Positions 8,123-23,034 of a stretch of DNA of 64,000 nucleotides are shown here, piece by piece. Both the position numbers and the translations under genes were made by a program. Under the pieces are notes generated by a model. That model made no database searches and was not told the DNA's origin. It saw only the letters and a list, made by a program, of their open reading frames with translations. Positions within the stretch are counted from its first letter, which is position 1. Every line of letters begins with the position of its first letter. Source of the stretch: an archaeon (lineage in GTDB: Archaea > Aenigmatarchaeota > Aenigmatarchaeia > QMZP01 > JAFGSV01); the NCBI GenBank assembly GCA_028279705.1, contig JANQNF010000016.1, positions 1 to 64,000 of the forward strand, written 5' to 3'.

Positions 8123-8141
8123 GATACTTCTCCGTGATTGC

Positions 8142-9362: not shown

Positions 9363-9621
9363 CGTGAATTTCTCTCGTTCTTTCCAATACTACAGGGATT
9401 TCTTCCGGCAAATTGGAGTCTAGGTCCATGTTGGCGATTATACGCAGTCTACGGTAGAACGTATACTTAGGTTTGGTTGACCTAAGTATAGATTTTACCT
9501 CATTCCACAAAGACTCGGGCTCGTCTTCTTCGAAAGGAATGAAAGATGCTTTGTCATTCAAAGTGTTGCGTACTTCGTAGCAAAGCAACCCATTGACCTT
9601 TAGTTGGCGGACTTGTATCAT
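9355..9621 (-). CDS. hypothetical protein
   Basis: internal Met start (MIQVRQLK) chosen because upstream part of ORF covers terminator hairpins and a small membrane peptide gene in another frame. Confidence 0.4.
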   Translation of the reverse strand: MIQVRQLKVNGLLCYEVRNTLNDKASFIPFEEDEPESLWNEVKSILRSTKPKYTFYRRLRIIANMDLDSNLPEEIPVVLERTREIHDE

Positions 9622-9782
9622 CGCATAAAGAAAGCCCAAGCTAGGAGGAAAGCACCAAAGAATGCTAGTCCACCCAGATGGGGTTCGTTCATGTTTTCGT
9701 AGCTGATGGCTACAGAGATTAATGCAGCGCCAATCCACAGCAATGCATTTAGCAGAAATTTCTTCATAGCATCTCTCTAAAA

Positions 9783-9815
9783 TTAGAAAGGGGGAGCCTT
9801 TCGGCTCCCCCAATA
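9783..9815 (-). terminator. putative intrinsic terminator
   Basis: GC hairpin GGGGGAGCC-UUUC-GGCUCCCCC followed on minus strand by UUUCUAAUUUU. Confidence 0.45.
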
Positions 9816-9912
9816 GGGCGCTTAGCGCCTCCACCACTCGGTTTTAAGTTCCGAGAAACTGGGCCTGCCGAATATCGGCAGGGTCCACCACTGAGTTTAT
9901 AGTTCTCAGAAA

Positions 9913-10905: not shown

Positions 10906-10925
10906 TTTTCTGTCTGCTCCTAAAT

Positions 10926-11189
10926 TTAGGCGTTCTTAACGGGAACGAGCTTCCGGTATACGACCGGAGCCCAGAGGCAAATTAGCCAGAGCGCCATCAG
11001 GGCGAGCACGTAGCCCGAGTAATCCCGTGACGCAACACGAGCGACACCATACTCCAAGTCACCACCGTTAAGCTGGTCAACTGCGAGGTCGGCCTGCTCT
11101 TGCGGCATGAAGTTGTTGTACACGCTCATGAAGAATGCCGTAACCAGAACAATGGCTACGGTCCAGAAGATACGTCTGCGATTTGTCAT
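10926..11189 (-). CDS. small membrane protein
   Basis: internal Met start MTNRRRIFW; two hydrophobic helices. Confidence 0.45.
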   Translation of the reverse strand: MTNRRRIFWTVAIVLVTAFFMSVYNNFMPQEQADLAVDQLNGGDLEYGVARVASRDYSGYVLALMALWLICLWAPVVYRKLVPVKNA

Positions 11190-11978: not shown

Positions 11979-12053
11979 TGGTACCCCGCCTAGGAGTCGA
12001 ACCCAGATTCTCGGTTTAGAAGACCGATGCCTTATCCATTAGACGAACGGGGC
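11979..12053 (-). tRNA. tRNA-Arg (TCT)
   Basis: minus-strand cloverleaf GCCCCGU...CGGUC-UUCUAAA-ACCGA...GGGUUCGACUCC...ACCA; anticodon UCU. Confidence 0.8.
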
Positions 12054-12641
12054 TTATTTGAATGCTGAAGGTAGTTCCTTCTTTAGTCTCGACAATACAG
12101 CAACCATCGAGCCGATGCCATTGCCCTTATCATCAAAGACGTTTCTAACGAGAAGCTTTTTGAAAGCATCGCCGTCAAGTTCTGCTTCCATCAGTGCTTC
12201 TGCGATTTTCCTGTTTTCTCTCTTAGCTACTACTTTATCGAGGGTGTTCCCGTGCTTCAACTTACATCTAATAATAGATAGAATGTAAGTCATTCGCAGG
12301 TACTTGCCAACGAAATGAGACCCAAACTCGATATAGAGCAGATAGCGTTGGCCTTTGACCCTAAAGACCTTGGTTTTCTTTCTTACGTTCTTCTCGATGC
12401 TGCGGAGTCTTGCTCTGATTGCACGCACCGAGTTTTGGTCGATAGGATTGTTACCCGTCTTGATTAGAAGGCCCTTCTGGCCATCTCTAACCCAACCGGC
12501 AGCCAATTCTTTACATGTACTTGTTTCTCCGGTCTGCGGACAACCCCACATGAATGTATTTTCATATGGGTTTTCGGAAAACTTATTTCTGAAGTAGACG
12601 CTGTTCGAGAGGTCTTTCAGAATTTTGATGTTCTGTTTCAT
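12054..12641 (-). CDS. hypothetical protein
   Basis: 195 aa ORF lying exactly between two tRNA-Arg genes. Confidence 0.5.
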   Translation of the reverse strand: MKQNIKILKDLSNSVYFRNKFSENPYENTFMWGCPQTGETSTCKELAAGWVRDGQKGLLIKTGNNPIDQNSVRAIRARLRSIEKNVRKKTKVFRVKGQRYLLYIEFGSHFVGKYLRMTYILSIIRCKLKHGNTLDKVVAKRENRKIAEALMEAELDGDAFKKLLVRNVFDDKGNGIGSMVAVLSRLKKELPSAFK

Positions 12642-12650
12642 TTAACGAAG

Positions 12651-12726
12651 TGGTATCCCTGCGAGGACTCGAACCCCGAACTTGGCTTTAGGAGAGCCAC
12701 GCGATATCCTGTTTCACCACAGGGAC
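12651..12726 (-). tRNA. tRNA-Arg (CCT)
   Basis: minus-strand cloverleaf GUCCCUG...UGGCU-CUCCUAA-AGCCA...GGGGUUCGAGUCC...CCA; anticodon CCU. Confidence 0.8.
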
Positions 12727-12865: not shown

Positions 12866-13282
12866 CTAGTCCCAAAACGCTCCGAAGTACGGGTTGTACT
12901 CCTCGTCGTCTTCTTCAAAATATTTCTCCACTAACTTCGGGTTGACTCGCCTAAGTAGGCACGGTATTCTGCTCTTTGGCATACACGCCAGTTTTGCCGG
13001 AGTTCGGCCGTCGTGACATGGCAATTCTTCTACTTCGTAGTGCATGTGACCTTTGGTATCACCCCTACCTTCGTAGATTAGAGATTCGCCAGTGATTTTG
13101 CAAATCGACGCCTGCATCCAACGCTGGTCTCCCCGAATGACTGCACAGAGGTACCCTAGGGCAATCTTCGAACCGTACATTGGTCGGAAGTATCCCTGCT
13201 CCGCTTCAACCCAAATTAAAAAGTCTTCCCCTCTTAGGAGTTTAGCGGCGAGTACCTCTCTATTAGCTTTTTTCTTTTTCAC
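12866..13282 (-). CDS. hypothetical protein
   Basis: 138 aa ORF. Confidence 0.5.
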   Translation of the reverse strand: MKKKKANREVLAAKLLRGEDFLIWVEAEQGYFRPMYGSKIALGYLCAVIRGDQRWMQASICKITGESLIYEGRGDTKGHMHYEVEELPCHDGRTPAKLACMPKSRIPCLLRRVNPKLVEKYFEEDDEEYNPYFGAFWD

Positions 13283-13641
13283 GGGTGGTATGTGAAGAAC
13301 AAACCATCGGTTTGCTCATCCACATCGAGACGGGCGGTAGCAGAGCTTTCCTGCTCCCAGTAGCTCTCGTTGACAACGTACATTTCCGCTTCAACGAGTT
13401 CCTGACCCGTATCTACCTCTACCTTCTCACGTCGATAGAAACTGGGCGCACCCTCAATCATATCGAATCGTGTGATGGTATCATCGTCTACGAAGATAAG
13501 CTCTCCGCAGATGTTGTGTCCTTCGTTTGAAGGAATGGCTGCCGGGAAAGAACCCATGTCGATGAGTCGGAAACCCTTGACAGTGCCTTTCTCGGCGTTT
13601 TCACGGCCTTTCAAAATGCCGTATACAAAGACGGGATTCAT
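13279..13641 (-). CDS. gamma-glutamyl cyclotransferase-like (AIG2/GGCT family) protein
   Basis: 120 aa; N-terminal VFVYGILKG matches the FVYGTL signature of AIG2-like fold. Confidence 0.65.
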   Translation of the reverse strand: MNPVFVYGILKGRENAEKGTVKGFRLIDMGSFPAAIPSNEGHNICGELIFVDDDTITRFDMIEGAPSFYRREKVEVDTGQELVEAEMYVVNESYWEQESSATARLDVDEQTDGLFFTYHP

Positions 13642-13643: not shown

Positions 13644-13961
13644 CTAGTTCTTCTTTAGAATTTGCTGTAGTAACTCCCGATTAGGAGTCAGGGAGTCGAT
13701 ATAAGAAGCCGCGGCGAAGCCGAGGCAAATCAGCACGATAATGACCGCAACAATCTTGATGCCGTTGTAGTCGTTATCGTCGGTTTTCTTTACGATGTAG
13801 TTTGAGAACCACCAACCGAAAATCAGCATGAATACTGCAAAAGCTGCAAATGCAATTGCGGTAGCGATATCCGAAAGGTGCTGTTCTTTGGCTAGGACGT
13901 GCCAACCTGATTCGGCTTTTTCACCAACTTGTCTAAGAAACTCAGCTAGTTTTTCATCCAT
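13644..13961 (-). CDS. membrane protein
   Basis: 105 aa with two TM helices. Confidence 0.45.
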   Translation of the reverse strand: MDEKLAEFLRQVGEKAESGWHVLAKEQHLSDIATAIAFAAFAVFMLIFGWWFSNYIVKKTDDNDYNGIKIVAVIIVLICLGFAAASYIDSLTPNRELLQQILKKN

Positions 13962-15030
13962 CTCTCAGTCTCGAACGGACAACCCGAAAAATGTGATGCC
14001 GAATATCGTGTCCGTCTAGCAGCGAGAACATGGCGCTGCGGAAATCCGGCTCGATGTTTTTGTTCACCTCAAATGCGAAATCGCGGCGGGAGCCGCCAGC
14101 CATATGTTTGACGGACTCCCATGCCGCCATTATCTGTCGCTCGATATCCCACAACATTGCACGAAGCTGAGCGTAGATATCGTCGAACTGTACCTGTAGT
14201 TCCTTCGGAAGTGAGAGTAGAACAGACCTATACTCTCCACCTTCCACCATATCCAGAATCTTTTTCTGGCTGCGCATATCGAGCGCCTTATGGATACGGA
14301 GGTACCACGGGTTCTTGATTTTTACTCGGAAGCCGCAGTCCCAGCGGCATACGAAGCCTTCCGTTCCCTCTTCGAAAGGCATCTCTTCGATTTTATCGTA
14401 GCCGTTCGTCTTGAGAATCATAGTGCCGAACTTCTTCTCATTATAGACGCGACGGGGTTCCATCCCCATCTGGTCGGCTAGAATCGGAATGCGACCGGCA
14501 GGCTGCTCTTGGCCCGTGTGCTTGTTACGCACAGCAAGCAGCCTAAGACCTTCGAAGTCACCGTAGTCTACCACAACCCTGTTGGCCGGGTAGATGATTT
14601 CCGTCATGATGGTATCGTTCGGGTCCATCTTGGAGAAATCATATCGCGGCAGTAGAATCTCTCTGGCATAGTTGGCTTGGTCTGATTCCAAACTGCCCTT
14701 TGTTGAGACATTCCACTGACCGTTGTGGAAGAACACCACGCCCAATGAACCGTCGAGCTTTTCTTCGGCTACATACCGGCCTTCCGGTAGATTCTTGGGT
14801 TCGGTCTCCGACCGCTCAAACAAGTTGAAAAACTTGTCAAAGGGCCGCGCAACGATGTTGCCATCTGCATCTAAGATTAGACCACGAGCCATGCGCGTGG
14901 TGGCATTCCAGATACGGTTGACGACAGCGTTCTGTGTGTACACGTAGATGAATAGGTCACCGAACCGACGTTCGTAGACCAAATCATCCTTAGCGGCGCG
15001 TCGGAGTTGATTTTGGAGAGGTGTGCTCAT
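13954..15030 (-). CDS. ATP-dependent RNA ligase (Rnl-like nucleotidyltransferase)
   Basis: 358 aa; motif I VAEEKLDGS (KxDG), motif IV EGFVCR, motif V KIKNPWY; order typical of RNA/DNA ligase nucleotidyltransferase domain. Confidence 0.75.
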   Translation of the reverse strand: MSTPLQNQLRRAAKDDLVYERRFGDLFIYVYTQNAVVNRIWNATTRMARGLILDADGNIVARPFDKFFNLFERSETEPKNLPEGRYVAEEKLDGSLGVVFFHNGQWNVSTKGSLESDQANYAREILLPRYDFSKMDPNDTIMTEIIYPANRVVVDYGDFEGLRLLAVRNKHTGQEQPAGRIPILADQMGMEPRRVYNEKKFGTMILKTNGYDKIEEMPFEEGTEGFVCRWDCGFRVKIKNPWYLRIHKALDMRSQKKILDMVEGGEYRSVLLSLPKELQVQFDDIYAQLRAMLWDIERQIMAAWESVKHMAGGSRRDFAFEVNKNIEPDFRSAMFSLLDGHDIRHHIFRVVRSRLRDG

Positions 15031-15126
15031 TGTCCAGTTTACGCCAGTATGGATGCATACTTTCCACTACTCGGCGCGTTGCTCTTTTCTTTTGTACTTT
15101 CTCGAAGTACAGGTCTCTATATCTTC

Positions 15127-15366
15127 TTACCACCGAATTGTCACCCTGTGAAGTCTTCCTTTGAAGATTTGCTCGGTGACGTCGAATCCGTCTTCTTTCA
15201 GTTGAGACACAGCGCGAGCACCATGTTTGTACTCGTCACCAAGAAAATCGTGCTCGTAAGTATTACTAGCACTACGACCTTTGCGCAGGCGAAGCTGGTC
15301 GTAGACCTTTTTCATGGCGATTTCAAAACTATCGCCACGCATTTCTGCTGCGGTGATGCGACTCAT
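15127..15366 (-). CDS. hypothetical protein
   Basis: 79 aa; start overlaps stop of upstream peptide gene (ATGA). Confidence 0.45.
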   Translation of the reverse strand: MSRITAAEMRGDSFEIAMKKVYDQLRLRKGRSASNTYEHDFLGDEYKHGARAVSQLKEDGFDVTEQIFKGRLHRVTIRW

Positions 15367-15486
15367 TCGTCACCCTTTTTGGAATTACCACCTTTGATGG
15401 CTTGGATTAGATAAGCCAAAGCTGGAATTCCGAAAAGCGCCATAATGACGATGAACTTGATTAAGTCGTTCATATCTTCAAACATT
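15362..15486 (-). CDS. small hydrophobic peptide (about 41 aa)
   Basis: MFEDMNDLIKFIVIMALFGIPALAYLIQAIKGGNSKKGDE; start overlaps stop of HD/kinase gene (TAATG) and stop overlaps next start; coordinates approximate. Confidence 0.3.
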
Positions 15487-16498
15487 ACGCAGTCCTCGTG
15501 ATTTCTACATCGTCGAAACCTTCTGAAGTCAGTTTCTTTGCGACGTGTTCATCATCTGCAATTTTACCAAGCCCAGCTACCAAGTCTCCATGGAACTGGA
15601 CGAGAACTTTATCTGGAATGAGCAGTCGATGCCGGTGAGGCTTCCCGTGCTCATCTCTATTTCTCTGAATGCACACTTCAAGTGGAGCGTACACCAAGTG
15701 AGCTTTGACGGTGATGCCGGGGAACTCTTCCCTCAACCACTCCAGCATGTCCCGTCTACGCCTGACGGTGTTGTGACAGTTGTCAACGACGATGCCTTGT
15801 CCTCGACCCAGTCCCATTCGAATGTGCTGGCGCTGTACTTTAATTGCCGAGTTTTCCTGATGACGCCATTGACCCGGACCAATACCGAGAACTTCTCGGA
15901 TATCATCCCGGCTTGTACGTTCGAAGCCCGGCTTCCACCACTCACCGTAGTCTCGACTGGCGTCAACGATGGCTTTACTCATGGTGGATTTACCAGCCGC
16001 TTGAATGCCAACCATCAGGATGACCTGATTTCTTCTCGGGTCGAGTTCGTCTAGCGTAGCGTAGATTTCGTCCCACGGCATGTGCTTGCCGTCTTCCCTG
16101 CGTCCCGCGTGGTCGTAGTTGTTGAGTCTCATCAACTCGTCAAACCATTCGTGCTGTTCCAAGTCTTTGCGCTTGTGAGCACGCATTTTGCCCGACGTAT
16201 AATCGTAGGGCTTCATGTGGTTCTCAACCAACCACCTAACTTTAGGCGGAACATCATCGGCAATCATCAGCGCACCGCGATAGGCGTGTTGAGCCCACGC
16301 ACGGGCATCGTTTTTATTCTTGCCGATATCGTGCAGTAGGGATGCGAAGATAACATCCCATGTATCACTAGCTTCGATAGCTAGAGTGGTCACCTGACCC
16401 AGATGGTTTTTCACATTGGGCTCAGGGTGAAACTCTTTTTTAATGTCGGCGTAGTTTGCGGTGTTGTCCACCATACGCCGCAGTCTAGCGGAAATCAT
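15485..16498 (-). CDS. HD-domain phosphohydrolase fused to P-loop polynucleotide kinase-like domain
   Basis: 337 aa; N-terminal HD motif LLHDIGK; C-terminal Walker A GIQAAGKST; an end-healing architecture (phosphoesterase + kinase) next to RNA ligase. Confidence 0.7.
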   Translation of the reverse strand: MISARLRRMVDNTANYADIKKEFHPEPNVKNHLGQVTTLAIEASDTWDVIFASLLHDIGKNKNDARAWAQHAYRGALMIADDVPPKVRWLVENHMKPYDYTSGKMRAHKRKDLEQHEWFDELMRLNNYDHAGRREDGKHMPWDEIYATLDELDPRRNQVILMVGIQAAGKSTMSKAIVDASRDYGEWWKPGFERTSRDDIREVLGIGPGQWRHQENSAIKVQRQHIRMGLGRGQGIVVDNCHNTVRRRRDMLEWLREEFPGITVKAHLVYAPLEVCIQRNRDEHGKPHRHRLLIPDKVLVQFHGDLVAGLGKIADDEHVAKKLTSEGFDDVEITRTA

Positions 16499-16888
16499 CT
16501 AGTCTATTCCTAGCGCATCCCTCTCTTCTTCAGAGAGCTTATCTCTTCCTTGTTTGGCCAGCTTTTGCCGATTTGCTTCTTCGGCTTCTTCTCTTTCTCT
16601 CTTCCTATCGGCTTCTTGGTGCTCGTCCCACCAATCAGCTACTTTGCGCATGTTCTTATCCCTGCCGTCATAGATAATGACTTCGGGTGTGCCCTTACAC
16701 AAGCCGCACAAGGCTGCCGTGATTTCGTCAGCGTGTTCTACGTTACCGTAGTTATCTTTGGCTGCTTTAGCGATAAGTTTCGGTACTGTGACACCTATCT
16801 TAGTTGCCAACAAAACGAAGCATTTGGCAGCCCTTTTACTTTCACGCTCCCTAGCGTTGGGCTCCAAGTAGTCAGAACGGCACGGCAT
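16499..16888 (-). CDS. hypothetical protein
   Basis: 129 aa, acidic/charged C-terminus. Confidence 0.5.
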   Translation of the reverse strand: MPCRSDYLEPNARERESKRAAKCFVLLATKIGVTVPKLIAKAAKDNYGNVEHADEITAALCGLCKGTPEVIIYDGRDKNMRKVADWWDEHQEADRKREREEAEEANRQKLAKQGRDKLSEEERDALGID

Positions 16889-16890
16889 GA

Positions 16891-17826
16891 TTACTCCTTC
16901 GGAGCATGGACTTTATCCATACTGTGTCCAATGCTGGGCTTGGCCAAATGCCCATTGCGTCTCATCCAATCTTGGACGAACCAGAGTTGACCACAACCGC
17001 CGCCGATATCGTCCTGACCGGCAGGGTCGAATACGCGCGTGTTGAAACCCAGAGCACGCATCTTTTCTTGAAAGTCAAGAGCCAACTGTCTCTGTCTTTC
17101 GTTGGCGGCTGCGACATTCTCATCACGCTCGCAAATGACAGAGATGGTTGATTCCCAGTGGTCGGGCGTGAACAGTTCAGCGAGACGCTCAGCGTCATCT
17201 TGACTGTTATTACCATCGTGAACGCAGTAGTTGAAGAACGGCTTGCGTCCGGTGGCCATAGCCCAATACATTCCTTCAATAGCCATTTCACCTAAAGTTA
17301 GTTTAGCTTCGAAAGGAATGAGTTTGTTGCGAGCTTCGTTCGTGGATTCGTGGACCGAGAATTGTAGGCCGATGGTGGGGATAGCTGCCGACAGCAGACA
17401 CAGGTCTTCGTAGATGGGTACTCGTGGCCCACTAGTGCTGATGAGCAGCGCCGCGTTCGGCCACAGCGCACTCAAGTAATGAATGGCCTTCTTCAAGTTA
17501 GGCCAATTCAAAAGCGGCTCACCCATGCTCATGAACATGATTTGTAAGCGTTTGATATCCCGCCCGCTCATGCCCGTGGCTTTGATAAGCTCTTTCGGCT
17601 GGTCGGCAATCTCTACTGCTGACAGATTGCGAACGAAGTTATCCCCAGCACCGCAGAAGCGGCACCCAACAGGACAGCCACTCTGCGTCGAACAGCAGAT
17701 TACCGTCCGTTCTTCATAGGTGGGGTATTTATACAGCACAGACTCAGCAACGGCATTCGGTGCTTCGAACACGTACTTTGCTACGTTCTGGTCTGAACTG
17801 TCAATCCGTCTAATATTAGTCCACAT
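16891..17826 (-). CDS. RlmN/Cfr-like radical SAM RNA methyltransferase
   Basis: start set at MWTNIRR; CSTQSGCPVGCRFCGAG matches RlmN CxxxCxxC radical-SAM cluster; C-terminal GGGCGQLW matches conserved RlmN C-terminal Cys motif. Confidence 0.75.
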   Translation of the reverse strand: MWTNIRRIDSSDQNVAKYVFEAPNAVAESVLYKYPTYEERTVICCSTQSGCPVGCRFCGAGDNFVRNLSAVEIADQPKELIKATGMSGRDIKRLQIMFMSMGEPLLNWPNLKKAIHYLSALWPNAALLISTSGPRVPIYEDLCLLSAAIPTIGLQFSVHESTNEARNKLIPFEAKLTLGEMAIEGMYWAMATGRKPFFNYCVHDGNNSQDDAERLAELFTPDHWESTISVICERDENVAAANERQRQLALDFQEKMRALGFNTRVFDPAGQDDIGGGCGQLWFVQDWMRRNGHLAKPSIGHSMDKVHAPKE

Positions 17827-17866: not shown

Positions 17867-18082
17867 TCAACAACAACAGTAGATACGCTTCTTGTGACAA
17901 AGCATACACTGTCTAAATTGAGATGGGTTGCATTTAGGGCAAGCGTGGTCAAACGGACCACATACAACGGGTCCACCGCACTTGGGACAGGGCTCTAGTT
18001 CCTTACCATATGTATCTTTATGGTGAGGATAATGGCATTTAGCCGAGTTCTTTTCTCCGGATGATGGTGTCGCCTTTGTCAT
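17867..18082 (-). CDS. Cys-rich small protein
   Basis: 71 aa with multiple CxxC pairs. Confidence 0.35.
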   Translation of the reverse strand: MTKATPSSGEKNSAKCHYPHHKDTYGKELEPCPKCGGPVVCGPFDHACPKCNPSQFRQCMLCHKKRIYCCC

Positions 18083-18479
18083 CTACTCCTCCGGTTCCGT
18101 GTGCTCCACGTCTTCCGCTGGGTTTGTCGTCAGGCTCAAACTTGAACTTCTGTTGTCCTACTTGCCTCTTCCATTCTTCACAGAAACCTAGGAGATTACC
18201 GTTGGTGAATGCACCTTGTAGGCAAGTGACTAGGTTGTTGAGCTTGCGGCGTTTGGTCTGTTCGCTTTCGAACTGACCTTTATATCGAGCAGCTTCGGAC
18301 TTCCACAGGTTGGACTGGCTGATTAATGACAGGCTGTTTTCTTGCAACTCATGAACGCGAGCCTGTAGCTTGTCGCGTGCTATGTCACGCCAGACCGACA
18401 TGACAATCCACCAGCAAATGATGCCGATTACAAAGCCTCCGGCTGCCCAAAGCATTTCAGGATTGGTCGTCATTAGCAA
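18039..18479 (-). CDS. membrane-anchored coiled-coil protein
   Basis: 146 aa; N-terminal TM helix then predicted coiled coil. Confidence 0.45.
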   Translation of the reverse strand: MLMTTNPEMLWAAGGFVIGIICWWIVMSVWRDIARDKLQARVHELQENSLSLISQSNLWKSEAARYKGQFESEQTKRRKLNNLVTCLQGAFTNGNLLGFCEEWKRQVGQQKFKFEPDDKPSGRRGAHGTGGVDDKGDTIIRRKELG

Positions 18480-19018
18480 GCTCCTTCATCTAGGTGCTTT
18501 TTGATTAATGCAAATAAAGTTAGAAGAAGCCGTATTGCAGGGTCTCCATTTTTCAAGTCAAGACCCTTTATCCTGATTTCTGCCATCTCGGCTAGTGCCG
18601 AGCTATGGTCGAGTCTACGGGCGCGCGGGGTGCGTTGTCCGGGACCACGACGTAGATTGGCGATACGGTCCGCTAACTTACAGCACAGGGCTATATAGCT
18701 CTTGTGCCTCATGCTGGAGATTTGCTGCTTTAGCTGCTCATTACGAGGGAGGCGTGGGTCATCTGTCAATTCTGACACATAGCCAGCCACGTCAGTTCCA
18801 AAGTCTCTAGCGATATCGTCATACGTTAGACCGCTATCTTCAATGGAATCGTGTAGCGCACCCGTGCAGAGAGCATCTTCTTCGACGACGCCATGCTCAA
18901 CGAGCACAAACATCACTTCGAAGGTATGAATGAAGTAAACGACCGAGCCGTGCTTTTGCTTCCGGTGTACCCGGGCGCTCAGGTCCATTGCTTCCTTGAT
19001 TCTTGGAGTGATAATCAT
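18473..19018 (-). CDS. HD-domain hydrolase, (p)ppGpp hydrolase-like (SpoT/Mesh1-type)
   Basis: 181 aa; ALHDSIEDSG...FG..VAGYVSELT parallels RelA/SpoT HD domain LLHDVIEDT...FG..VA.LV.GVT. Confidence 0.6.
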   Translation of the reverse strand: MIITPRIKEAMDLSARVHRKQKHGSVVYFIHTFEVMFVLVEHGVVEEDALCTGALHDSIEDSGLTYDDIARDFGTDVAGYVSELTDDPRLPRNEQLKQQISSMRHKSYIALCCKLADRIANLRRGPGQRTPRARRLDHSSALAEMAEIRIKGLDLKNGDPAIRLLLTLFALIKKHLDEGAC

Positions 19019-19533
19019 TCGTAGATGCTGGCTTTCTTCTTGCGAGGGAAGAGAGGCTTACCGGCTTTTGTGAATGTGTTGTAGTTCACACACCACACAT
19101 ACAGCATACTTCCACGCTGCTGATATCTACGGTTGGGCATCCTGTGGACTAATTTCCACCTATGCCTTTTCATAGCAGGGAAGAGCCAAGTTAATTCTGT
19201 GCCTACAAATTGTACACCTGTAGCACAGACACGCCCAGCCATGGCTTTCACTACCTGTAGGTAGAGGTCTCCCCTTTGCTTACCTTTCACCCAATCATCG
19301 ACTAGGTTACTACAGTTAGGAAGCTTGATGTTTGCGTAACCGCAACATCCCTGTTGCTCAAACATCTTTATGGCCATCGACCCTCTTAGGCCACTTTCTG
19401 CTTTTGCGGCAATCCGTACGGTAAAAATGTCGGAGCCGCGTGTGATAGTGACTGTGAATTTATCTTCGTTGAGCCACGGAATGTCTTGTACTAGAAATTC
19501 CGTTTGCAGCTCATTGTTCATCCAGTAAGCCAT
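19015..19533 (-). CDS. hypothetical protein
   Basis: 172 aa ORF. Confidence 0.5.
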   Translation of the reverse strand: MAYWMNNELQTEFLVQDIPWLNEDKFTVTITRGSDIFTVRIAAKAESGLRGSMAIKMFEQQGCCGYANIKLPNCSNLVDDWVKGKQRGDLYLQVVKAMAGRVCATGVQFVGTELTWLFPAMKRHRWKLVHRMPNRRYQQRGSMLYVWCVNYNTFTKAGKPLFPRKKKASIYE

Positions 19534-20270
19534 TAAATATCCTGCACCGAGAAACTTCCGTCAGCTTCGAACGTGTAAAGTTTGTCGGGCTCTACGTTTT
19601 CTACGTCACCGAATCCCAGCTTACGCAGTAGCGTATCTGAATATGAATCACGAATCATGCCGAATCGTGAAATCAAGGTGGCGGTGTTGAATACCCTACT
19701 ACGAATGATGTGGTATGGTGAGCAACGTCTAGATTTAGACGCGAAGTAAATCTTGCCCGGCGTTCTCTCATCGTAGATGGCCGTGCCGATTGTCCAGTCA
19801 TCTAGAACTTTGAAAGCGTGACGTACGCCTTCGAGTACGGTGGGTTGAGAGTCAACCAACCACATCAACAGTTCGGAGTCAGTGTTGGTATCTAGTTCAA
19901 CGCCGAGTCTTTCGGCTAGTGGGAACCAGTTCTCGTGAGCGTAGCCTTCATGCATAAGCATGACGTGCTTGCCGTGGAACGGGTGGTGATGCTTGTCGTA
20001 TGCTCGGTCGTCGGGGTAGTTTGCTCCGGACCTAGCGTGAACACCAAGCAAATGCGGTACTCTGCCTTTGATGAGCGTGTCTTCTAAGAACTGACCGCAA
20101 GGTACCGGCCGCTTCTTCCACGCTACATACTCTGTATCGAATTCACCCATGAGTCCGGCAGCGCCGTGGCCTTGTGACTCGGCTGCTGTTCCGGCTTCAA
20201 TCATGAATCGACGCCAGGGTTCGGTATGTTCGTGCGGGACTCGACCCGCAGAGATAATTATCGTACACAT
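19533..20270 (-). CDS. class II (Ntn) glutamine amidotransferase-like protein
   Basis: start set at MCTIIISAG (Met-Cys N-terminus = Ntn nucleophile); about 245 aa YafJ-like. Confidence 0.6.
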   Translation of the reverse strand: MCTIIISAGRVPHEHTEPWRRFMIEAGTAAESQGHGAAGLMGEFDTEYVAWKKRPVPCGQFLEDTLIKGRVPHLLGVHARSGANYPDDRAYDKHHHPFHGKHVMLMHEGYAHENWFPLAERLGVELDTNTDSELLMWLVDSQPTVLEGVRHAFKVLDDWTIGTAIYDERTPGKIYFASKSRRCSPYHIIRSRVFNTATLISRFGMIRDSYSDTLLRKLGFGDVENVEPDKLYTFEADGSFSVQDI

Positions 20271-20381
20271 AGTTGTTCTCAATTTAGATGGAGGGGAGTG
20301 CAGGGCTTGCACCTGCAACCAGAATGCGATTGCGCCCTCGTAGACTGGTCAATCCCAGCTTAGGGATAATCTCCCCATCAT

Positions 20382-20459
20382 TGGTACCCCATAGGGGAAT
20401 CGAACCCCTCTCTTCAGATTGAAAGTCTGATATCCTAAACCGATAGACGAATGGGGCTT
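20382..20459 (-). tRNA. tRNA-Glu (TTC)
   Basis: minus-strand cloverleaf; anticodon arm UCAGA-CUUUCAA-UCUGA; T-arm AGGGGUUCGAUUCCCCU; encoded CCA. Confidence 0.8.
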
Positions 20460-20461
20460 AT

Positions 20462-20537
20462 TGGTAGGCGATGACGGATTTGAACCGCCGACTTCTTCCT
20501 TGTAAGGGAAGCACTCTAGCCGCTGAGTTAATCGCCC
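20462..20537 (-). tRNA. tRNA-Val (TAC)
   Basis: GGGCGAUUAACUCAGCGGCUAGAGU...CUUCC-CUUACAA-GGAAG...GGCGGUUCAAAUCC...CCUACCA. Confidence 0.8.
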
Positions 20538-20847
20538 GTGGGGGTGCCGTATTTTTCAATGTTACGGCGTTCTTCTTCTGTGTATTGCCCGTAGAAGTGT
20601 CGCCAGTCCTTTTCGGTAAATCTTTCTACCGGAACACGAACTTTCTTCTTGATTCGAATTTTCTTTTTTTCCATCTCGTCCCCACAGTTCTTGGAGGAAC
20701 TTTCTGGTCTCTCGCCTTATCGGCTTACGCTTCACACTTGTCATGCGTGTGGTAGCTCCTGCTGCTGGTTGGGCCAGCCGAAGTCTGCTGTGTCATCGTG
20801 GAGTTCCTTTTCCTGTAGGAACTCCTCGTAACGCTCGTCTTTGTCGC

Positions 20848-21102
20848 TCATTTCTTCTCTTGGTTCTGTTCGATTTTCAGGATGCGACCGTGACTATCAA
20901 AGCACATGCGCCACCCCTTTTTGACGATTACTTTCAATCGTCCAGTGCGGATACTGCCATCATCCATTGCAACAGTGTAATGCCACAATGAAGAGCGCAG
21001 TAGTCTTTTGTCTTTGTCTACTTCGGTCACCGTACCCCAATACTCTTTGGGCTCGGAGCAAGCAACTAAAGTTAGAGCAAGTAGAATTACTAGTTTTTTC
21101 AT
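20848..21102 (-). CDS. putative lipoprotein
   Basis: 84 aa; signal peptide with lipobox LVAC. Confidence 0.5.
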   Translation of the reverse strand: MKKLVILLALTLVACSEPKEYWGTVTEVDKDKRLLRSSLWHYTVAMDDGSIRTGRLKVIVKKGWRMCFDSHGRILKIEQNQEKK

Positions 21103-21222
21103 GATAATCGAGGGAATCTGCGGCCACCAACCTGCCCAGAATCCAGCCGCGACACATCCAAGGGGATAAAACGCAGCTTGCCACCTGCCGCTCTCGCGGC
21201 GGAGAAAGGAGGAGTCCTACTT

Positions 21223-21714
21223 CTAGTGAAGTTTGAACGGCGAGACGATGATTTGCGGCTCGACGTAGACCGGGCGAGCATCGCCGGACTTCGGGTCCAC
21301 CATCATCAGCCACGTAGCCGAGAGACCCTGCGGCATGAACAGACCGTTCGGGTCCGCCTGCGGCATCTTGAGATAGCCTCGGTTGGTCTTCCACGTCGCG
21401 CGCTCGGGGTTCGTGTACTGAACGCTGTACGGCAGACCGAAGCCGATGCACTGGCCGATGAAGACCAGTTCGCCGGTCATGTGGTTGACGATGTAGGCGT
21501 AGGTCGTCAGGTTCTCTTGGTCACGAAGCTCGAAGATGGTCTTGGCAAGACGTCTCTCCTGATAGTTCGTGATACCCGGCATACCAATCTGTCGATTGGC
21601 CTCCATCATGGACTTGGCCGTGGCCTCCGCCTGCTGGGCGTCTGCATCGGAAACACCGCTGCCGCAACCTACGATGGCGACGGCCAGCACGATAAGGGTG
21701 ATGAAGCGTTTCAT
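21223..21714 (-). CDS. putative lipoprotein
   Basis: 163 aa; lipobox IVGC; high-GC segment, opposite-strand and alternate-frame ORFs judged spurious. Confidence 0.55.
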   Translation of the reverse strand: MKRFITLIVLAVAIVGCGSGVSDADAQQAEATAKSMMEANRQIGMPGITNYQERRLAKTIFELRDQENLTTYAYIVNHMTGELVFIGQCIGFGLPYSVQYTNPERATWKTNRGYLKMPQADPNGLFMPQGLSATWLMMVDPKSGDARPVYVEPQIIVSPFKLH

Positions 21715-22046
21715 CGGTTTCTACACTCCTGAAGAAAGGCCCGAAGCTCGGGCGAAGAAAGACGGTTGATGGGATACTCTGCGAACATGGTTCGCACAGT
21801 GGAACGAATCGCGGCTTTCTCGGTCTCGTCTGTCGAGCGCATGTACTCAAGACGGAACCGAGTCAACTGTTGAACCATGCCCTTGTCGTACGAATCCGTG
21901 TTGCGGAAAACGTCACGCTCGACGTTGGCACGTTCCTTGTCGAAGAAGCCCTTGATGTGGATTCCGGCAAACTCGATGCCGAAAGACAGGGCGAGCACGA
22001 CGGCGATAATGACAATCGCCAAGAAGAATGTGAAAACTTTTCTCAT
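21711..22046 (-). CDS. membrane protein
   Basis: 111 aa; N-terminal TM helix. Confidence 0.5.
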   Translation of the reverse strand: MRKVFTFFLAIVIIAVVLALSFGIEFAGIHIKGFFDKERANVERDVFRNTDSYDKGMVQQLTRFRLEYMRSTDETEKAAIRSTVRTMFAEYPINRLSSPELRAFLQECRNR

Positions 22047-22069
22047 GGTTTCCTCTAGGGTTAGAAAGT

Positions 22070-22145
22070 TGGTACCCCCGGTAGGGTTCGAACCTACGAC
22101 CTTGGGATTAAAAGTCCCCTACTCTACCAACTGAGTTACGGAGGC
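22070..22145 (-). tRNA. tRNA-Lys (TTT)
   Basis: GCCUCCGUAACUCAGUUGGUAGAGU-AGGGGA-CUUUUAA-UCCCA...GGUUCGAACCC...GGUACCA. Confidence 0.8.
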
Positions 22146-22301
22146 GTTATGATGTCTGGCGTTGTTTCTTTATGAAGACCTGTCTAATTCTAAATGCTCT
22201 TTGTACAATCAGTTCTCGTTGCCTGATGTTGTAGGATGATTTGGGCTCAATAGAAAGATATTCTTTCTCTAAAGCTTTAATCCAAGCCAGAATTATAGGT
22301 A

Positions 22302-22508
22302 TCATACTTTGATATATTCTTCGAACGTACCAAGTCGTTGTTCCGACTCAAGCCACCAGAAAGACTTCATCTGACGAGCACCACCACTTGCTTCTTGAGT
22401 GTGGAAGACAATCTCGTCGTCGTTTTCCATACACCCTAAGCAGACTAGGTTGTGCTGTTGTTCTGTCTTTCGGACAGCCCTTTGTAGGGCGGGGTTGTTT
22501 TCAAACAT
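22302..22508 (-). CDS. hypothetical protein
   Basis: 68 aa ORF. Confidence 0.35.
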   Translation of the reverse strand: MFENNPALQRAVRKTEQQHNLVCLGCMENDDEIVFHTQEASGGARQMKSFWWLESEQRLGTFEEYIKV

Positions 22509-22518
22509 GATTATAAAC

Positions 22519-23034
22519 TAAAGATAGACGATAAGCCGGGTTCTGTCGTGGACAGTCATTAATCTAGGACGCACGTTGCCGTACGCCTCAAGCGGCCTCG
22601 CCTTGCACCTACTAGAAGTTTACCTAGCTGCCTGTGTCACCACAAGCACTGGTGGTCTCTTACACCACCCTTTCACCCTTACCTGAGCCAGTTCACTAAA
22701 CGTCGCCATCTTCTCGACCACTTGAATCGAATGGCTCGTCCAACAATCTGTTCTCCACGTCCTGTAAAAAGGCTCATAGGCGGTCTACTCTCTGTTGCAC
22801 TTGTCCTATCCTCACGGACGGTGGCCGTTAACCACTAGCTTTTCTGTCGTCTCAATTGCAACATCACAATCCAGAAACATACGGCGAGTATGTGGTGATT
22901 TCCCACATGGCCTTCTCCGAAGAAAAGAATTGCAAAGCCAACTAGCCAAAAGATTGTGTCTCGCATAAAAGACGACTCCGGTGCCCGGACTTTCCTCTTG
23001 GGTGTGTCTCCCAAGCGACTGTCTATCTATCTTT
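22519..23034 (-). ncRNA. rnpB: RNase P RNA (bacterial type A, rnpB-like)
   Basis: minus-strand RNA contains GAGGAAAGUCCGGGCACC, GUGCAACAGAGAGUAGACCGCCUAUGAGC, CAGGUAAGGGUGAAAGGGUGGUGUAAGAGACCACC and GACUGUCCACGACAGAACCCGGCUUAUCG, near-identical to E. coli M1 RNA conserved regions; 5' AGAUAGAUAGAC pairs with 3' GUCUAUCU (P1); about 500-nt ORF-free stretch. Confidence 0.8.

What the first reader, a model, noticed from the sequence alone, without database searches (positions are those of the whole stretch)
13954..17826. tRNA repair operon: RlmN-like radical SAM enzyme, HD/P-loop kinase, coupled micro-peptide, RNA ligase
Consecutive minus-strand genes with overlapping stop/start codons encode an RlmN/Cfr-like radical SAM methyltransferase (CSTQSGCPVGCRFCGAG...GGGCGQLW), an HD phosphohydrolase fused to a P-loop polynucleotide kinase-like domain (LLHDIGK...GIQAAGKST), a 41-aa membrane peptide, a 79-aa protein and an ATP-dependent RNA ligase (KLDGS, EGFV, KIK motifs). 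Healing (phosphoesterase + kinase) plus sealing (ligase) is the logic of T4 Pnk/Rnl1, which counters host anticodon nucleases. An HD domain as the phosphoesterase and linkage to an RlmN-like tRNA/rRNA methyltransferase would be an undescribed variant, possibly re-modifying A37 of repaired tRNAs.
Basis: partly seen in the sequence, partly recalled or inferred. Interest (0 to 1): 0.8.

Follow-up and report, generated by a model that had tools for sequence, protein, structure and literature searches.

The report
Phage tRNA heal-and-seal repair module
A large phage carries a two-enzyme kit (an HD-phosphoesterase/kinase fusion plus a T4-type RNA ligase) that most likely mends tRNAs cut by host defences; the kit is of a known kind, and the neighbouring RlmN-like RNA methylase is a widespread phage gene whose link to repair is suggestive but unproven.

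Summary
The genes are real and mostly correctly named.

All catalytic motifs are intact. The window is from a ~176-kb phage, in an island with six tRNA genes, a tmRNA and an RNase P RNA.

The conserved unit is HD-Pnk plus Rnl1. In every related contig with enough sequence the ligase follows HD-Pnk on the same strand, 0.3-5.7 kb away. What lies between varies (RlaP, Thg1, small ORFs).

The HD-Pnk architecture is not undescribed. It was characterised in Runella slithyformis, where its gene overlaps a ligase gene, and HD-like phosphatases were noted in jumbo-phage RNA repair.

The radical SAM gene and the 129-aa gene are an insertion peculiar to this phage. The radical SAM family occurs in 221 viral contigs. 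HD-Pnk is never nearby, but about 14% have an RNA-repair gene close by (RtcB, Rnl1). A repair-linked role is therefore possible but unproven.

Verdict: new member of a known kind; moderate interest.

The parts
13954..15030 (-). T4 Rnl1 (RnlA)-type ATP-dependent RNA ligase, 358 aa: the sealing enzyme
   Evidence: Pfam RNA_lig_T4_1 4.9e-21 (76 bits, cut-off 28.3) and phrog_562 1.2e-63. TIGR02308 5.6e-25, below the equivalog cut-off. Aligns to T4 Rnl1 structure 2c5u over residues 46-323, with KLDGS, the motif III Glu, EGFV and KIK matching T4 KEDGS, E, EGYV and KIK. Found downstream of HD-Pnk in every relative with enough sequence.
15127..15366 (-). 79-aa ORF of unknown function; variable filler, not a conserved component
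   Evidence: No Pfam, PHROG or NCBIfam hit and no tblastn hit in phages. Not homologous to the 79-aa T4 Y07C-like protein at the same position in L004. No significant hit in any related locus.
15363..15485 (-). 40-aa ORF with one hydrophobic helix (putative membrane micro-protein); not conserved
   Evidence: ORF; hydrophobic stretch LIKFIVIMALFGIPALAYLIQAI read directly. No homologue in related loci. Unrelated small membrane-helix ORFs occupy similar positions in L007, L009 and L010.
15485..16498 (-). HD-Pnk, 337 aa: N-terminal HD (HDIG-type) phosphoesterase domain (~1-150) fused to a C-terminal P-loop 5'-OH polynucleotide kinase domain (~155-337); the end-healing enzyme
   Evidence: Pfam HD 1.2e-5 and AAA_33 1.9e-11; phrog_505 polynucleotide kinase 1.4e-11. 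Invariant across 20 homologues: H32, H56, D57, K60, H71, H94, D129, and G164, G169, K170, S171, T172, D198, R201, R279, N280. AF2 model pLDDT 90.8. Foldseek: the kinase half matches Pnkp and T4 Pnk kinases, the HD half matches PhnZ/TmpB HD folds. A profile search also finds the HD domains of CCA-adding enzymes and other HD+AAA_33 fusions.
16499..16888 (-).
   Evidence: phrog_11759 1.4e-31. Homologues in phiCbK-like Caulobacter phages and DSS3P8-like roseophages and in 40 metagenomic proteins. AF2 pLDDT 92.7, all helical; no PDB fold match, best E 2.2. Absent near the radical SAM gene in 83 other loci and near HD-Pnk in relatives. Its own contexts are unrelated.
16891..17826 (-). RlmN/Cfr-family radical SAM RNA adenine C-methyl synthase homologue, 311 aa, lacking the N-terminal accessory domain; an accessory gene inserted upstream of HD-Pnk
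   Evidence: TIGR00048 RlmN 5e-30 (104.7 bits, cut-off 290); Cfr models ~1e-22. PDB RlmN 6fz6 8.4e-22, Cfr 9p0p 1e-16, E. coli RlmN 3rf9 5.4e-15, aligned from RlmN residue ~83-107 onward. The CxxxCxxC motif and both mechanistic Cys (ICCSTQSGC, GGGCGQL) are aligned. 221 homologues in IMG/VR at 59-67% identity.
17867..18082 (-). 71-aa Cys-rich (zinc-ribbon-like) ORF; the conserved upstream neighbour of HD-Pnk in relatives, which marks the insertion point of the radical SAM + p129 pair
   Evidence: tblastn finds 54-57% identical copies immediately upstream of HD-Pnk in L005-L008. Sequence CPKCGG...CPKC. No significant Pfam hit.
13279..13641 (-). GGACT/AIG2-like protein, conserved just downstream of the ligase in relatives (context; role unknown)
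   Evidence: Pfam GGACT 5.1e-18. 48-57% identical copies follow the ligase in L006-L010.
11979..12726 (-). tRNA-Arg(UCU) 11979-12053 and tRNA-Arg(CCU) 12651-12726, with one ORF between (context)
   Evidence: ARAGORN; Rfam tRNA.
20382..22891 (-). tRNA-Glu(UUC) 20382-20457, tRNA-Val(UAC) 20462-20537, tRNA-Lys(UUU) 22070-22145 and a bacterial-type RNase P RNA 22520-22891 (context: tRNA-centred island)
   Evidence: ARAGORN. Rfam RF00010 171 bits, E 1.8e-53, full-length. tRNA-Glu has A37 (read).

Best explanation
This is a phage-encoded RNA (most likely tRNA) break-repair module of the heal-and-seal type. It sits in a tRNA/translation-rescue island of a ~176-kb tailed phage.

Proposed mechanism:
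1. [quoted passage not shown]
2. The N-terminal HD domain of HD-Pnk hydrolyses the cyclic or 3'-phosphate to give a 3'-OH. It has an HDIGK motif and a six-residue His/Asp metal site.
3. The C-terminal P-loop domain phosphorylates the 5'-OH.
4. The Rnl1-type ligase, encoded 0.45 kb downstream on the same strand, seals the break with ATP.

Status of each step:
- Shown by sequence and structure prediction: the domain identities, the intact catalytic residues, and the conserved HD-Pnk to Rnl1 gene linkage.
- Inferred: the activities themselves, tRNA as the substrate, and the counter-defence purpose.

The RlmN/Cfr-like radical SAM enzyme keeps the chemistry-defining cysteines, so it probably C-methylates an adenine in tRNA or rRNA. 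It and the 129-aa gene are lineage-specific cargo inserted at the variable 5' junction of HD-Pnk, not conserved parts of the repair unit. The 40-aa and 79-aa ORFs are non-conserved filler.
For: Domain identities.

Ligase: catalytic motifs align to T4 Rnl1 structures, E 1.6e-12, and the alignment runs through the C-terminal domain.

HD-Pnk:
- Invariant HD ligands, Walker A, and the Pnk-specific Asp/Arg (SRDDIR) and RN motifs across 20 homologues at 49-79% identity.
- Confident model, pLDDT 90.8. Its kinase half best matches C. thermocellum Pnkp, T4 Pnk, mammalian PNKP and the Pnkp1/Rnl/Hen1 complex.
- The HD domain retrieves the HD domains of CCA-adding tRNA nucleotidyltransferases and many other HD+AAA_33 fusions (NCBIfam PRK10885).

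Gene linkage: Rnl1 lies 0.3-5.7 kb downstream on the same strand in L004, L006, L007/L008, L009 and L010. The genes between include the known RNA-repair genes RlaP and Thg1.

Island context:
- Six tRNA genes.
- tmRNA and RNase P RNA.
- NAMPT and NMNAT.
- Terminase and portal, showing a phage.

Literature precedent:
- Runella HD-Pnk with an overlapping ligase gene (PMC6097658).
- The phage RNA-repair toolkit, including HD-like phosphatases, RlaP and Thg1 (PMC7824862).
- T4 Pnk and ligase reprocessing tRNA-Lys, cited in PMC12776372.

Radical SAM as an insertion:
- The p71 to HD-Pnk adjacency is kept in L005-L008.
- The radical SAM gene is absent from all HD-Pnk relatives.
- No HD-Pnk and no p129 near 83 other radical SAM loci.
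Against: - No biochemistry exists for this protein family.
- The HD half's closest solved folds are the diiron oxygenases PhnZ and TmpB (TM 0.62-0.68), not a proven RNA phosphoesterase.
- The ligase scores well below the NCBIfam RnlA equivalog cut-off (88 against 242 bits).
- The ligase next to Runella HD-Pnk did not seal the standard substrates tested (PMC6097658).
- Deinococcus HD-Pnk is linked to DNA-damage resistance (title cited in PMC6300522). The substrate could therefore be something other than tRNA, or DNA.
- Direct homology to Runella HD-Pnk could not be tested.
- No promoter or terminator signal above background defines a transcription unit.
Confidence: 0.75

Rival explanations
1. 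One reading: the RlmN-like radical SAM enzyme is a working partner of the repair module. It would methylate an anticodon-loop adenine such as A37 of repaired or phage-encoded tRNAs, either to restore the modification or to make the tRNA resistant to re-cleavage. This parallels Hen1 in the bacterial Pnkp/Hen1 repair-and-modify system.
For: - The gene sits tightly against the module: a 2-nt spacer and abutting genes.
- Both RlmN mechanistic cysteines and the CxxxCxxC motif are kept.
- The same radical SAM family lies next to RNA-repair genes in at least two other, differently built arrangements. One is AAA_33 kinase, isochorismatase, Rnl1, radical SAM in L022. The other is Metallophos, x, radical SAM, x, RtcB in seven loci of one clade.
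- A divergent RlmN-like radical SAM gene lies between HD-Pnk and Thg1/RlaP/Rnl1 in L010.
- tRNA genes lie within 8 kb in about 21 of 60 loci.
- The phage tRNA-Glu has A37.
- The repair-plus-methylation precedent, Chan et al. 2009, is cited in PMC12776372.
Against: - Absent from all six HD-Pnk relatives.
- 71 of 83 loci have no recognisable RNA-repair gene within 8 kb. As many loci (15) have NAD-salvage genes instead.
- Accessory genes of large phages cluster in islands anyway, so a 2-3-fold enrichment is weak. No proper background control was possible.
- The seven RtcB loci are one related clade, so they count as one event.
- The protein lacks RlmN's N-terminal domain and scores far below both the RlmN and Cfr cut-offs, so its target is unknown.
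- The L010 enzyme lacks the Cys118 equivalent.
Confidence: 0.2
2. The radical SAM enzyme acts on the ribosome, giving m2A/m8A2503-like methylation of 23S rRNA as RlmN and Cfr do. Its purpose would be to tune or protect translation during infection, independently of the repair genes. The adjacency is an accident of the accessory island.
For: - Family membership in RlmN/Cfr, whose founding activity is A2503 methylation (model names).
- Very high conservation (59-67% identity) across diverse large phages fits an invariant target such as rRNA.
- No fixed gene partner.
Against: - RlmN is dual-specificity for rRNA and tRNA (NCBIfam model name).
- The absence of the N-terminal domain leaves substrate choice open.
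- The gene often sits among tRNA genes.
Confidence: 0.25
3. HD-Pnk and the ligase heal and seal DNA ends, or process phage nucleic acid for another purpose, rather than repairing tRNA.
For: Runella HD-Pnk is described as a DNA/RNA end-healing enzyme (title). Deinococcus HD-Pnk abets resistance to ionising radiation and mitomycin C (title).
Against: - The partner ligase is an Rnl1-type RNA ligase, including the C-terminal region aligned with T4 Rnl1, with no DNA-ligase or OB signal.
- Relatives interpose RlaP and Thg1, which are RNA and tRNA end-repair enzymes (PMC7824862).
- The locus is surrounded by tRNA genes, a tmRNA and an RNase P RNA.
Confidence: 0.07
4. The HD domain is a PhnZ/TmpB-like diiron oxygenase, or a hydrolase of nucleotide second messengers, and not an RNA 3'-end phosphoesterase.
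For: - The best solved-structure matches of the HD half are PhnZ and TmpB.
- Weak NCBIfam hits to Phn-HD and TmpB.
- The six-ligand H..HD..H..H..D pattern.
Against: - The HDIGK motif with an invariant Lys60 is the HDIG phosphohydrolase signature (TIGR00277 hit). PhnZ has HDLGH at that position in the alignment.
- Profile searches retrieve CCA-enzyme HD domains rather than phosphonate oxygenases.
- The permanent fusion to a Pnk-clade kinase and the conserved linkage to an RNA ligase point to end healing.
- This exact fusion has proven 2',3'-phosphoesterase activity in Runella.
Confidence: 0.05

Closest known systems
Runella slithyformis HD-Pnk + adjacent ATP-dependent ligase cassette (Munir & Shuman 2017, as summarised in PMC6097658); Deinococcus radiodurans HD-Pnk
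   Same: Same two-domain architecture: an N-terminal HD phosphoesterase and a C-terminal P-loop 5'-OH polynucleotide kinase in one polypeptide of similar size. The gene is co-oriented with, and close to, an ATP-dependent polynucleotide ligase gene.
   Different: - This one is phage-borne.
- Gene order is HD-Pnk then ligase, with two small ORFs between; in Runella the ligase is upstream and overlaps.
- The ligase here is clearly Rnl1-type.
- There are no Tpt1 or MTase-HIT neighbours.
- Direct sequence homology to the Runella protein was not tested. The window's own clade is small (22 proteins at 48-100% identity) and is only ~21-27% identical to other HD+AAA_33 fusions.
Bacteriophage T4 Pnkp (PseT) + Rnl1 (RnlA) tRNA repair pathway against the PrrC anticodon nuclease
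   Same: - Phage heal-and-seal logic.
- The kinase domain fold and the D/R signature (SRDDIR here; NRDDYR in T4, from my own knowledge of the T4 sequence).
- The ligase is a T4 Rnl1 homologue with all the nucleotidyl-transferase motifs.
- A tRNA-Lys(UUU) gene lies nearby.
   Different: - The 3'-phosphatase is an HD domain placed N-terminal to the kinase. In T4 it is a HAD (DxDxT) domain placed C-terminal.
- The ligase is only distantly related (E 1.6e-12, below the equivalog cut-off).
Bacterial Pnkp/Hen1 repair-and-modify system (Chan, Zhou & Huang 2009; structure 4xrp Pnkp1/Rnl/Hen1)
   Same: Healing, sealing and an RNA methyltransferase encoded together. This is the precedent for the idea that a methylase marks repaired RNA. 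The kinase half of the model matches 4xrp.
   Different: - Hen1 is a Rossmann-fold 2'-O-methyltransferase acting at the break. Here the candidate is a radical SAM adenine C-methyl synthase whose linkage is not conserved.
- The Pnkp phosphoesterase is calcineurin-like, not HD.
RlmN / Cfr radical SAM methyl synthases (23S rRNA A2503; RlmN also tRNA A37)
   Same: The radical SAM core, the CxxxCxxC motif and both mechanistic cysteines are kept. The best hits in NCBIfam and the PDB are RlmN and Cfr.
   Different: - About 70-100 N-terminal residues (the accessory domain) are missing.
- Scores are far below both the RlmN and Cfr equivalog cut-offs.
- It forms a tight phage clade (59-67% identity over 221 viral contigs).
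- The target is unknown.
Jumbo-phage RNA-repair / NAD-salvage counter-defence islands (Iyer et al. 2021, PMC7824862)
   Same: The same toolkit appears in the window and its relatives: Rnl1, Pnk, HD-like phosphatase, RlaP, Thg1, cRec, SAK-HAD, NAMPT/NMNAT, tRNA arrays and tmRNA.
   Different: That survey does not mention a radical SAM or RlmN-like component (0 occurrences) or an RNase P RNA.

Membership tests
T4 Rnl1 (RnlA) family RNA ligase | Match to the family profile above the curated threshold | tested here: met
   Pfam RNA_lig_T4_1: 76 bits against a gathering score of 28.3. phrog_562 1.2e-63.
T4 Rnl1 (RnlA) family RNA ligase | Covalent nucleotidyl-transferase motifs I (KxDG), III, IV (EGxV) and V (KxK) with the catalytic lysine | tested here: met
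   KLDGS (K91), TEIIYP, EGFV and KIK align column for column with T4 Rnl1 KEDGS, FEFVAP, EGYV and KIK in 2c5u.
T4 Rnl1 (RnlA) family RNA ligase | No OB domain; Rnl1-specific C-terminal helical domain | tested here: met
   No DNA-ligase or OB Pfam hit. The alignments to T4 Rnl1 and TIGR02308 extend to residues 323-329, covering the C-terminal region.
T4 Rnl1 (RnlA) family RNA ligase | NCBIfam equivalog score (same function as T4 RnlA) | tested here: not met
   TIGR02308 scores 88.2 bits against a cut-off of 242. This is a divergent family member, not an equivalog.
HD-Pnk bifunctional end-healing enzyme (Runella type) | N-terminal HD domain with conserved His/Asp metal ligands | tested here: met
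   Pfam HD 26 bits against a cut-off of 22. H32, H56, D57, H71, H94 and D129 are invariant in 20 homologues. HD fold in the model.
HD-Pnk bifunctional end-healing enzyme (Runella type) | C-terminal P-loop kinase of the polynucleotide-kinase clade | tested here: met
   GxxxxGKST, D198/R201 and R279/N280 are invariant. Foldseek top hits are Pnkp kinase 4gp6, T4 Pnk 1ly1 and PNKP. phrog_505.
HD-Pnk bifunctional end-healing enzyme (Runella type) | Genetic linkage to an ATP-dependent polynucleotide ligase | tested here: met
   Rnl1 lies 0.45 kb downstream in the window and 0.3-5.7 kb downstream in all relatives with enough sequence. The order and the ligase type differ from Runella.
HD-Pnk bifunctional end-healing enzyme (Runella type) | Detectable sequence homology to the characterised Runella/Deinococcus proteins | not tested
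   Neither the sequences nor the primary papers were obtainable. The genome scan found only distant kinase-only hits. Profile searches show a broad set of HD+AAA_33 fusions, but none carries a name.
HD-Pnk bifunctional end-healing enzyme (Runella type) | 2',3'-cyclic/3'-phosphoesterase and 5'-OH kinase activities | not testable with these tools
   Requires biochemistry.
T4 Pnkp (Pnk + HAD phosphatase) | C-terminal HAD-family (DxDxT) 3'-phosphatase domain | tested here: not met
   No HAD hit. The phosphoesterase candidate is an N-terminal HD domain. It works like T4 Pnkp but is not a member.
RlmN/Cfr radical SAM methyl synthases | CxxxCxxC [4Fe-4S]/SAM motif | tested here: met
   GCPVGCRFC aligns with GCAVGCSFC of RlmN 6fz6. 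Pfam Radical_SAM 35.2 bits against a cut-off of 29.5.
RlmN/Cfr radical SAM methyl synthases | Two additional mechanistic cysteines (E. coli RlmN Cys118 and Cys355; numbering from my own knowledge) | tested here: met
   A Cys seven residues before the first cluster Cys (ICCSTQSGC) and the C-terminal GGGCGQL align with the corresponding Cys of 6fz6 and 9p0p.
RlmN/Cfr radical SAM methyl synthases | Score above the RlmN or Cfr equivalog cut-off | tested here: not met
   TIGR00048 scores 104.7 against 290; the Cfr models score 77-78 against 468-550. It is a distinct clade of the superfamily.
RlmN/Cfr radical SAM methyl synthases | N-terminal accessory (RNA-binding) domain | tested here: not met
   Alignments start at RlmN model position 71, or at residues 83 (6fz6) and 107 (3rf9). 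The phage protein starts ~5 residues before that point, and all 80 viral homologues are ~310 aa.
RlmN/Cfr radical SAM methyl synthases | m2A/m8A formation on A2503 rRNA or A37 tRNA | not testable with these tools
   Requires expression and nucleoside mass spectrometry.

The most novel reading that the evidence does not exclude
The truncated RlmN-like radical SAM enzyme defines a phage-specific clade of RNA adenine C-methyl synthases serving as a third, 'modify' arm of phage tRNA defence. It would methylate anticodon-loop adenines of phage or repaired host tRNAs so that host anticodon nucleases cannot cut, or re-cut, them. This would explain its recurrent placement beside three different repair set-ups: HD-Pnk + Rnl1, kinase + Rnl1, and Metallophos + RtcB.
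Probability: 0.15. Interest if true: 0.75.

Novelty: new member of a known kind. Interest (0 to 1): 0.4.

Why it matters
If the module works as inferred, phages have more than one way to build the T4-style tRNA repair answer to anticodon nucleases. Here the phosphatase is an HD domain instead of the HAD domain. The module also gives a compact, conserved phage HD-Pnk/Rnl1 pair that can be tested against the tRNA-cleaving defence systems now being found (PrrC, RloC and others).

The more open question is the RlmN-like radical SAM family. It is widespread and highly conserved in large phages, and I found no literature on it. It sometimes sits beside RNA-repair genes. Showing what it methylates would reveal whether phages rewrite host or phage RNA modification as a counter-defence.

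The same island also carries an RNase P RNA. This hints that the phage carries unusually complete tRNA maturation and repair capacity.

Tried and rejected
Searches that gave little or nothing:
- A near-identity DNA search of the region against 50,697 phage records found no match.
- HD-Pnk has almost no homologue in cultured phages; the only hit is a kinase-only match in Streptomyces phage TunaTartare.
- A single-sequence scan of IMG/VR for HD-Pnk found nothing.
- The genome-contig scan with the HD-Pnk alignment found only distant kinase-domain hits in Lachnospiraceae, so no bacterial HD-Pnk could be retrieved for direct comparison.
- The primary HD-Pnk papers and Burroughs & Aravind 2016 are not held.
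- Literature searches for a phage RlmN or a radical SAM link to RNA repair returned nothing relevant.

Readings considered and rejected:
- The 79-aa ORF looked positionally equivalent to a T4 Y07C-like 79-aa protein in L004, but the two are unrelated. It has no phage hit. An apparent resemblance to small L010 proteins is not significant.
- p129 as a radical SAM partner such as a reductant: rejected, because it is never near the radical SAM gene elsewhere and its confident all-alpha model matches nothing in the PDB.
- Promoter and terminator scans were not above the shuffled background (16 against 10.5±3.2; 15 against 10.0±2.9), so no operon boundaries could be drawn.
- The PhnZ-like oxygenase reading of the HD domain: considered and judged unlikely, given the HDIGK motif, the CCA-enzyme HD relatives and the fusion context.
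- T4 gp63-type tail-fibre attachment as the ligase's role: considered only because of the PHROG name; nothing here bears on it.

Full report
OBSERVATION

The minus strand between 13954 and 17826 carries six tightly packed ORFs:
- Radical SAM protein, 16891-17826. The ORF extends to 17976, but the Met at 17826 is the real start, because 80 viral homologues align from residue 1-5.
- A 337-aa HD + P-loop protein, 15485-16498.
- A 40-aa ORF with one hydrophobic helix, 15363-15485.
- A 79-aa ORF, 15127-15366.
- A 358-aa ligase, 13954-15030.

Junctions are a 2-nt spacer, an abutment, a 1-nt overlap, a 4-nt overlap and a 96-nt gap.
- Ligase: RNA_lig_T4_1 76 bits (cut-off 28.3), phrog_562 1.2e-63.
- Fusion protein: HD 26 bits and AAA_33 44.9 bits; phrog_505 polynucleotide kinase.
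- Radical SAM: RlmN TIGR00048 5e-30 and Cfr models ~1e-22.

WHAT THE WINDOW IS

The window encodes a terminase and a portal, so it is a phage. It comes from a ~176-kb contig. The region around the finding is a tRNA-centred accessory island, all on one strand:
- tRNA-Met, Arg(UCU), Arg(CCU), Glu, Val and Lys(UUU).
- A tmRNA at 5561-5953 and a full-length bacterial-type RNase P RNA at 22520-22891.
- NAMPT and NMNAT.
- An SPFH/Band-7 protein.
- A SpoT-like HD_4 hydrolase.
- A GGACT protein.

No cultured phage is similar at the DNA level.

THE ENZYMES

Ligase. It aligns to T4 Rnl1 structures (E 1.6e-12). KLDGS, the motif III Glu, EGFV and KIK lie on the T4 catalytic motifs, and the alignment continues through the C-terminal region. 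There is no OB or DNA-ligase signal. It is a divergent Rnl1-family member, below the NCBIfam equivalog cut-off.

HD-Pnk.
- Twenty homologues at 49-79% identity keep H32, H56-D57, K60, H71, H94 and D129 in the HD half.
- In the kinase half they keep GxxxxGKST, D198, R201, R279 and N280.
- SRDDIR and RNRDEHG correspond to the T4 Pnk general-base and phosphate-binding motifs (my knowledge of the T4 sequence).
- The AlphaFold model is confident, pLDDT 90.8.
- Its kinase half best matches C. thermocellum Pnkp kinase (4gp6, E 1.9e-7, TM 0.74), T4 Pnk (1ly1, TM 0.77), mammalian PNKP and the Pnkp1/Rnl/Hen1 complex.
- The HD half best matches the HD-fold oxygenases PhnZ and TmpB (TM 0.62-0.68).
- Against an oxygenase reading, the motif is HDIGK (HDIG type). 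Profile searches retrieve the HD domains of CCA-adding tRNA nucleotidyltransferases and many other HD+AAA_33 fusions. I therefore read it as a phosphohydrolase.

Radical SAM enzyme.
- It aligns with RlmN (6fz6, 8.4e-22), Cfr (9p0p, 1e-16) and E. coli RlmN (3rf9, 5.4e-15), from about RlmN residue 83-107 onward.
- It keeps the CxxxCxxC motif and both extra cysteines that define the methyl-synthase mechanism.
- It lacks the N-terminal accessory domain and scores far below both equivalog cut-offs.
- It is therefore a distinct clade of the RlmN/Cfr superfamily.

WHAT IS CONSERVED AND WHAT IS NOT

The HD-Pnk clade is small: 22 proteins, all from metagenomes, with only 5 representative clusters below 1e-30. 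In every related contig with enough downstream sequence an Rnl1 ligase follows on the same strand:
- L004: 0.3 kb away.
- L009: 0.45 kb.
- L006: 1.4 kb.
- L007/L008: 3.5 kb.
- L010: 5.7 kb.

The genes between them vary. They include RlaP and Thg1, both recognised RNA and tRNA end-repair enzymes (PMC7824862), plus unrelated small ORFs, many with a membrane helix. The window's 40-aa and 79-aa ORFs have no counterpart anywhere. A GGACT gene follows the ligase in most relatives.

Upstream of HD-Pnk the neighbour varies: NAMPT, a 224-aa unknown, or a 71-aa Cys-rich ORF. That 71-aa ORF directly precedes HD-Pnk in L005-L008. In the window it is separated from HD-Pnk by exactly the radical SAM and p129 genes. 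Those two genes are therefore an insertion peculiar to this lineage.

THE RADICAL SAM FAMILY ELSEWHERE

It has 221 homologues in IMG/VR at 59-67% identity, on contigs up to 430 kb. It also occurs in cultured T5-like Stenotrophomonas and Xanthomonas phages, ~137-kb Vibrio phages, Salmonella phage Arash and others.

Counts within 8 kb across 83 loci:

| Neighbour | Loci |
|---|---|
| HD-Pnk | 0 |
| p129 | 0 |
| RtcB | 9 |
| Metallophos | 8 |
| Rnl1 | 1 |
| RlaP | 1 |
| Thg1 | 1 |
| NAMPT | 15 |
| Any RNA-repair gene | 12 |
| Any NAD-salvage gene | 15 |

tRNA genes lie within 8 kb in about 21 of 60 loci.

Two arrangements stand out:
- L022 has AAA_33 kinase, isochorismatase, Rnl1, radical SAM, tightly packed.
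- One clade of seven loci has Metallophos, x, radical SAM, x, RtcB.

In addition, L010, an HD-Pnk relative, has a divergent RlmN-like radical SAM gene between HD-Pnk and Thg1/RlaP. It lacks the Cys118 equivalent.

The family therefore lives in the same translation-rescue and NAD islands and recurs beside repair genes in a minority of lineages, but it has no fixed partner. This is suggestive of an RNA-repair-related role. It is not evidence of one, because accessory genes cluster in islands anyway and I could not build a background control.

p129

It belongs to phrog_11759 and occurs in phiCbK-like and roseophage genomes and in 40 metagenomic proteins. Its neighbourhoods there are unrelated. 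It has a confident all-alpha model with no PDB match. Its function is unknown.

COMPARISON WITH WHAT IS KNOWN

- The HD-Pnk architecture was characterised in Runella slithyformis: an HD 2',3'-phosphoesterase plus a 5'-OH kinase, with the gene overlapping a ligase gene (PMC6097658).
- It has also been studied in Deinococcus (title in PMC6300522).
- A survey of jumbo phages already notes HD-like phosphatases alongside Pnk, Rnl1/Rnl2/RtcB, RlaP, Thg1, tRNA arrays and NAD salvage (PMC7824862).
- The functional paradigm is T4 Pnkp + Rnl1 reversing PrrC cleavage of tRNA-Lys (cited in PMC12776372).

The core finding is thus a new, phage-borne member of a known kind: the T4 logic with the HAD phosphatase replaced by an HD domain, paired with an Rnl1-type ligase. 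The claim of an 'undescribed variant' holds only for the possible radical SAM connection. I found no literature on that, and its nearest precedent is the Pnkp/Hen1 repair-and-methylate system.

VERDICT

- The heal-and-seal interpretation is well supported by sequence, structure prediction and conserved linkage (confidence about 0.75).
- The novelty claim for HD-Pnk is wrong.
- The radical SAM link is possible but weak, about 0.15-0.2.
- Interest is moderate (0.4). It rests mainly on the uncharacterised, widespread phage RlmN-like family and on the unusually complete tRNA island, which includes an RNase P RNA.

Noticed in passing
window 22520-22891 (-): A full-length bacterial class A RNase P RNA (Rfam RF00010, 171 bits, E 1.8e-53, model 1-367) lies on the phage contig, next to tRNA-Lys. 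It shares only a ~40-nt conserved core with E. coli rnpB and has no real counterpart in 50,697 phage records. A phage-encoded RNase P RNA seems unusual; a literature search turned up no description.
   Followed up: partly
window 5561-5953 (-): tmRNA gene (Rfam RF00023, 88 bits, E 5.6e-33) that ARAGORN missed. A tmRNA also occurs in the related locus L009 (15312-15713) and in several radical SAM loci (L016, L042, L062).
   Followed up: partly
L046, L047, L048, L073, L075, L076, L084 (about 6900-11000 in each): One clade of IMG/VR phage contigs has a recurring same-strand arrangement: calcineurin-like phosphoesterase (recognised in five of the seven loci), a small ORF, the RlmN-like radical SAM gene, one or more ORFs, then RtcB. 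L022 has AAA_33 kinase, isochorismatase, Rnl1, radical SAM. The radical SAM family (221 viral contigs, 59-67% identity) appears uncharacterised.
   Followed up: partly
L010 1411-2403: A divergent RlmN/Cfr-like radical SAM protein (24% identical to the window's; TIGR00048 9.7e-8) lies between HD-Pnk and Thg1/RlaP. It keeps CxxxCxxC and a C-terminal Cys (ITCGNA) but lacks the Cys118 equivalent, so it may perform different chemistry.
   Followed up: partly
L007 10660-11574 and L010 4670-5629: A Cys-rich 304/319-aa protein family (51% identical to each other, no Pfam or NCBIfam hit) lies shortly downstream of RlaP inside the HD-Pnk...Rnl1 interval (adjacent in L007, three small ORFs away in L010). 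It may be an unrecognised component of the RNA-repair island.
   Followed up: no
window 16499-16888 (-): The p129/phrog_11759 family (invariant C3, Y47, C61, W86, W87, H90) folds confidently (pLDDT 92.7) into an all-alpha structure with no PDB match. It is shared with phiCbK-like Caulobacter phages and DSS3P8-like roseophages.
   Followed up: yes
window 18473-19018 (-), 19533-20318 (-), 1771-4488 (-), 9913-10905 (-): Other counter-defence-type genes in the island: a SpoT/RelA-type HD_4 hydrolase domain protein (181 aa), a weak GATase-like protein conserved in relatives, NAMPT plus a CinA-NMNAT fusion, and an SPFH/Band-7 protein.
   Followed up: partly
source contig, outside the window (protein P0030): The same 175,863-bp contig encodes a second, stand-alone 192-aa Pnk-like kinase, 30% identical to the kinase half of HD-Pnk. 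It is not in this window.
   Followed up: partly
window 13279-13641 (-); L006-L010: A GGACT/AIG2-like gene is conserved just downstream of the Rnl1 ligase in the window and in five related loci. No known connection to RNA repair.
   Followed up: no
L100 12209-12393: A Hen1_N + methyltransferase protein (the bacterial RNA-repair 2'-O-methylase type) is encoded on a ~175-kb phage contig that also carries a p129 homologue and an HD_4 protein.
   Followed up: no
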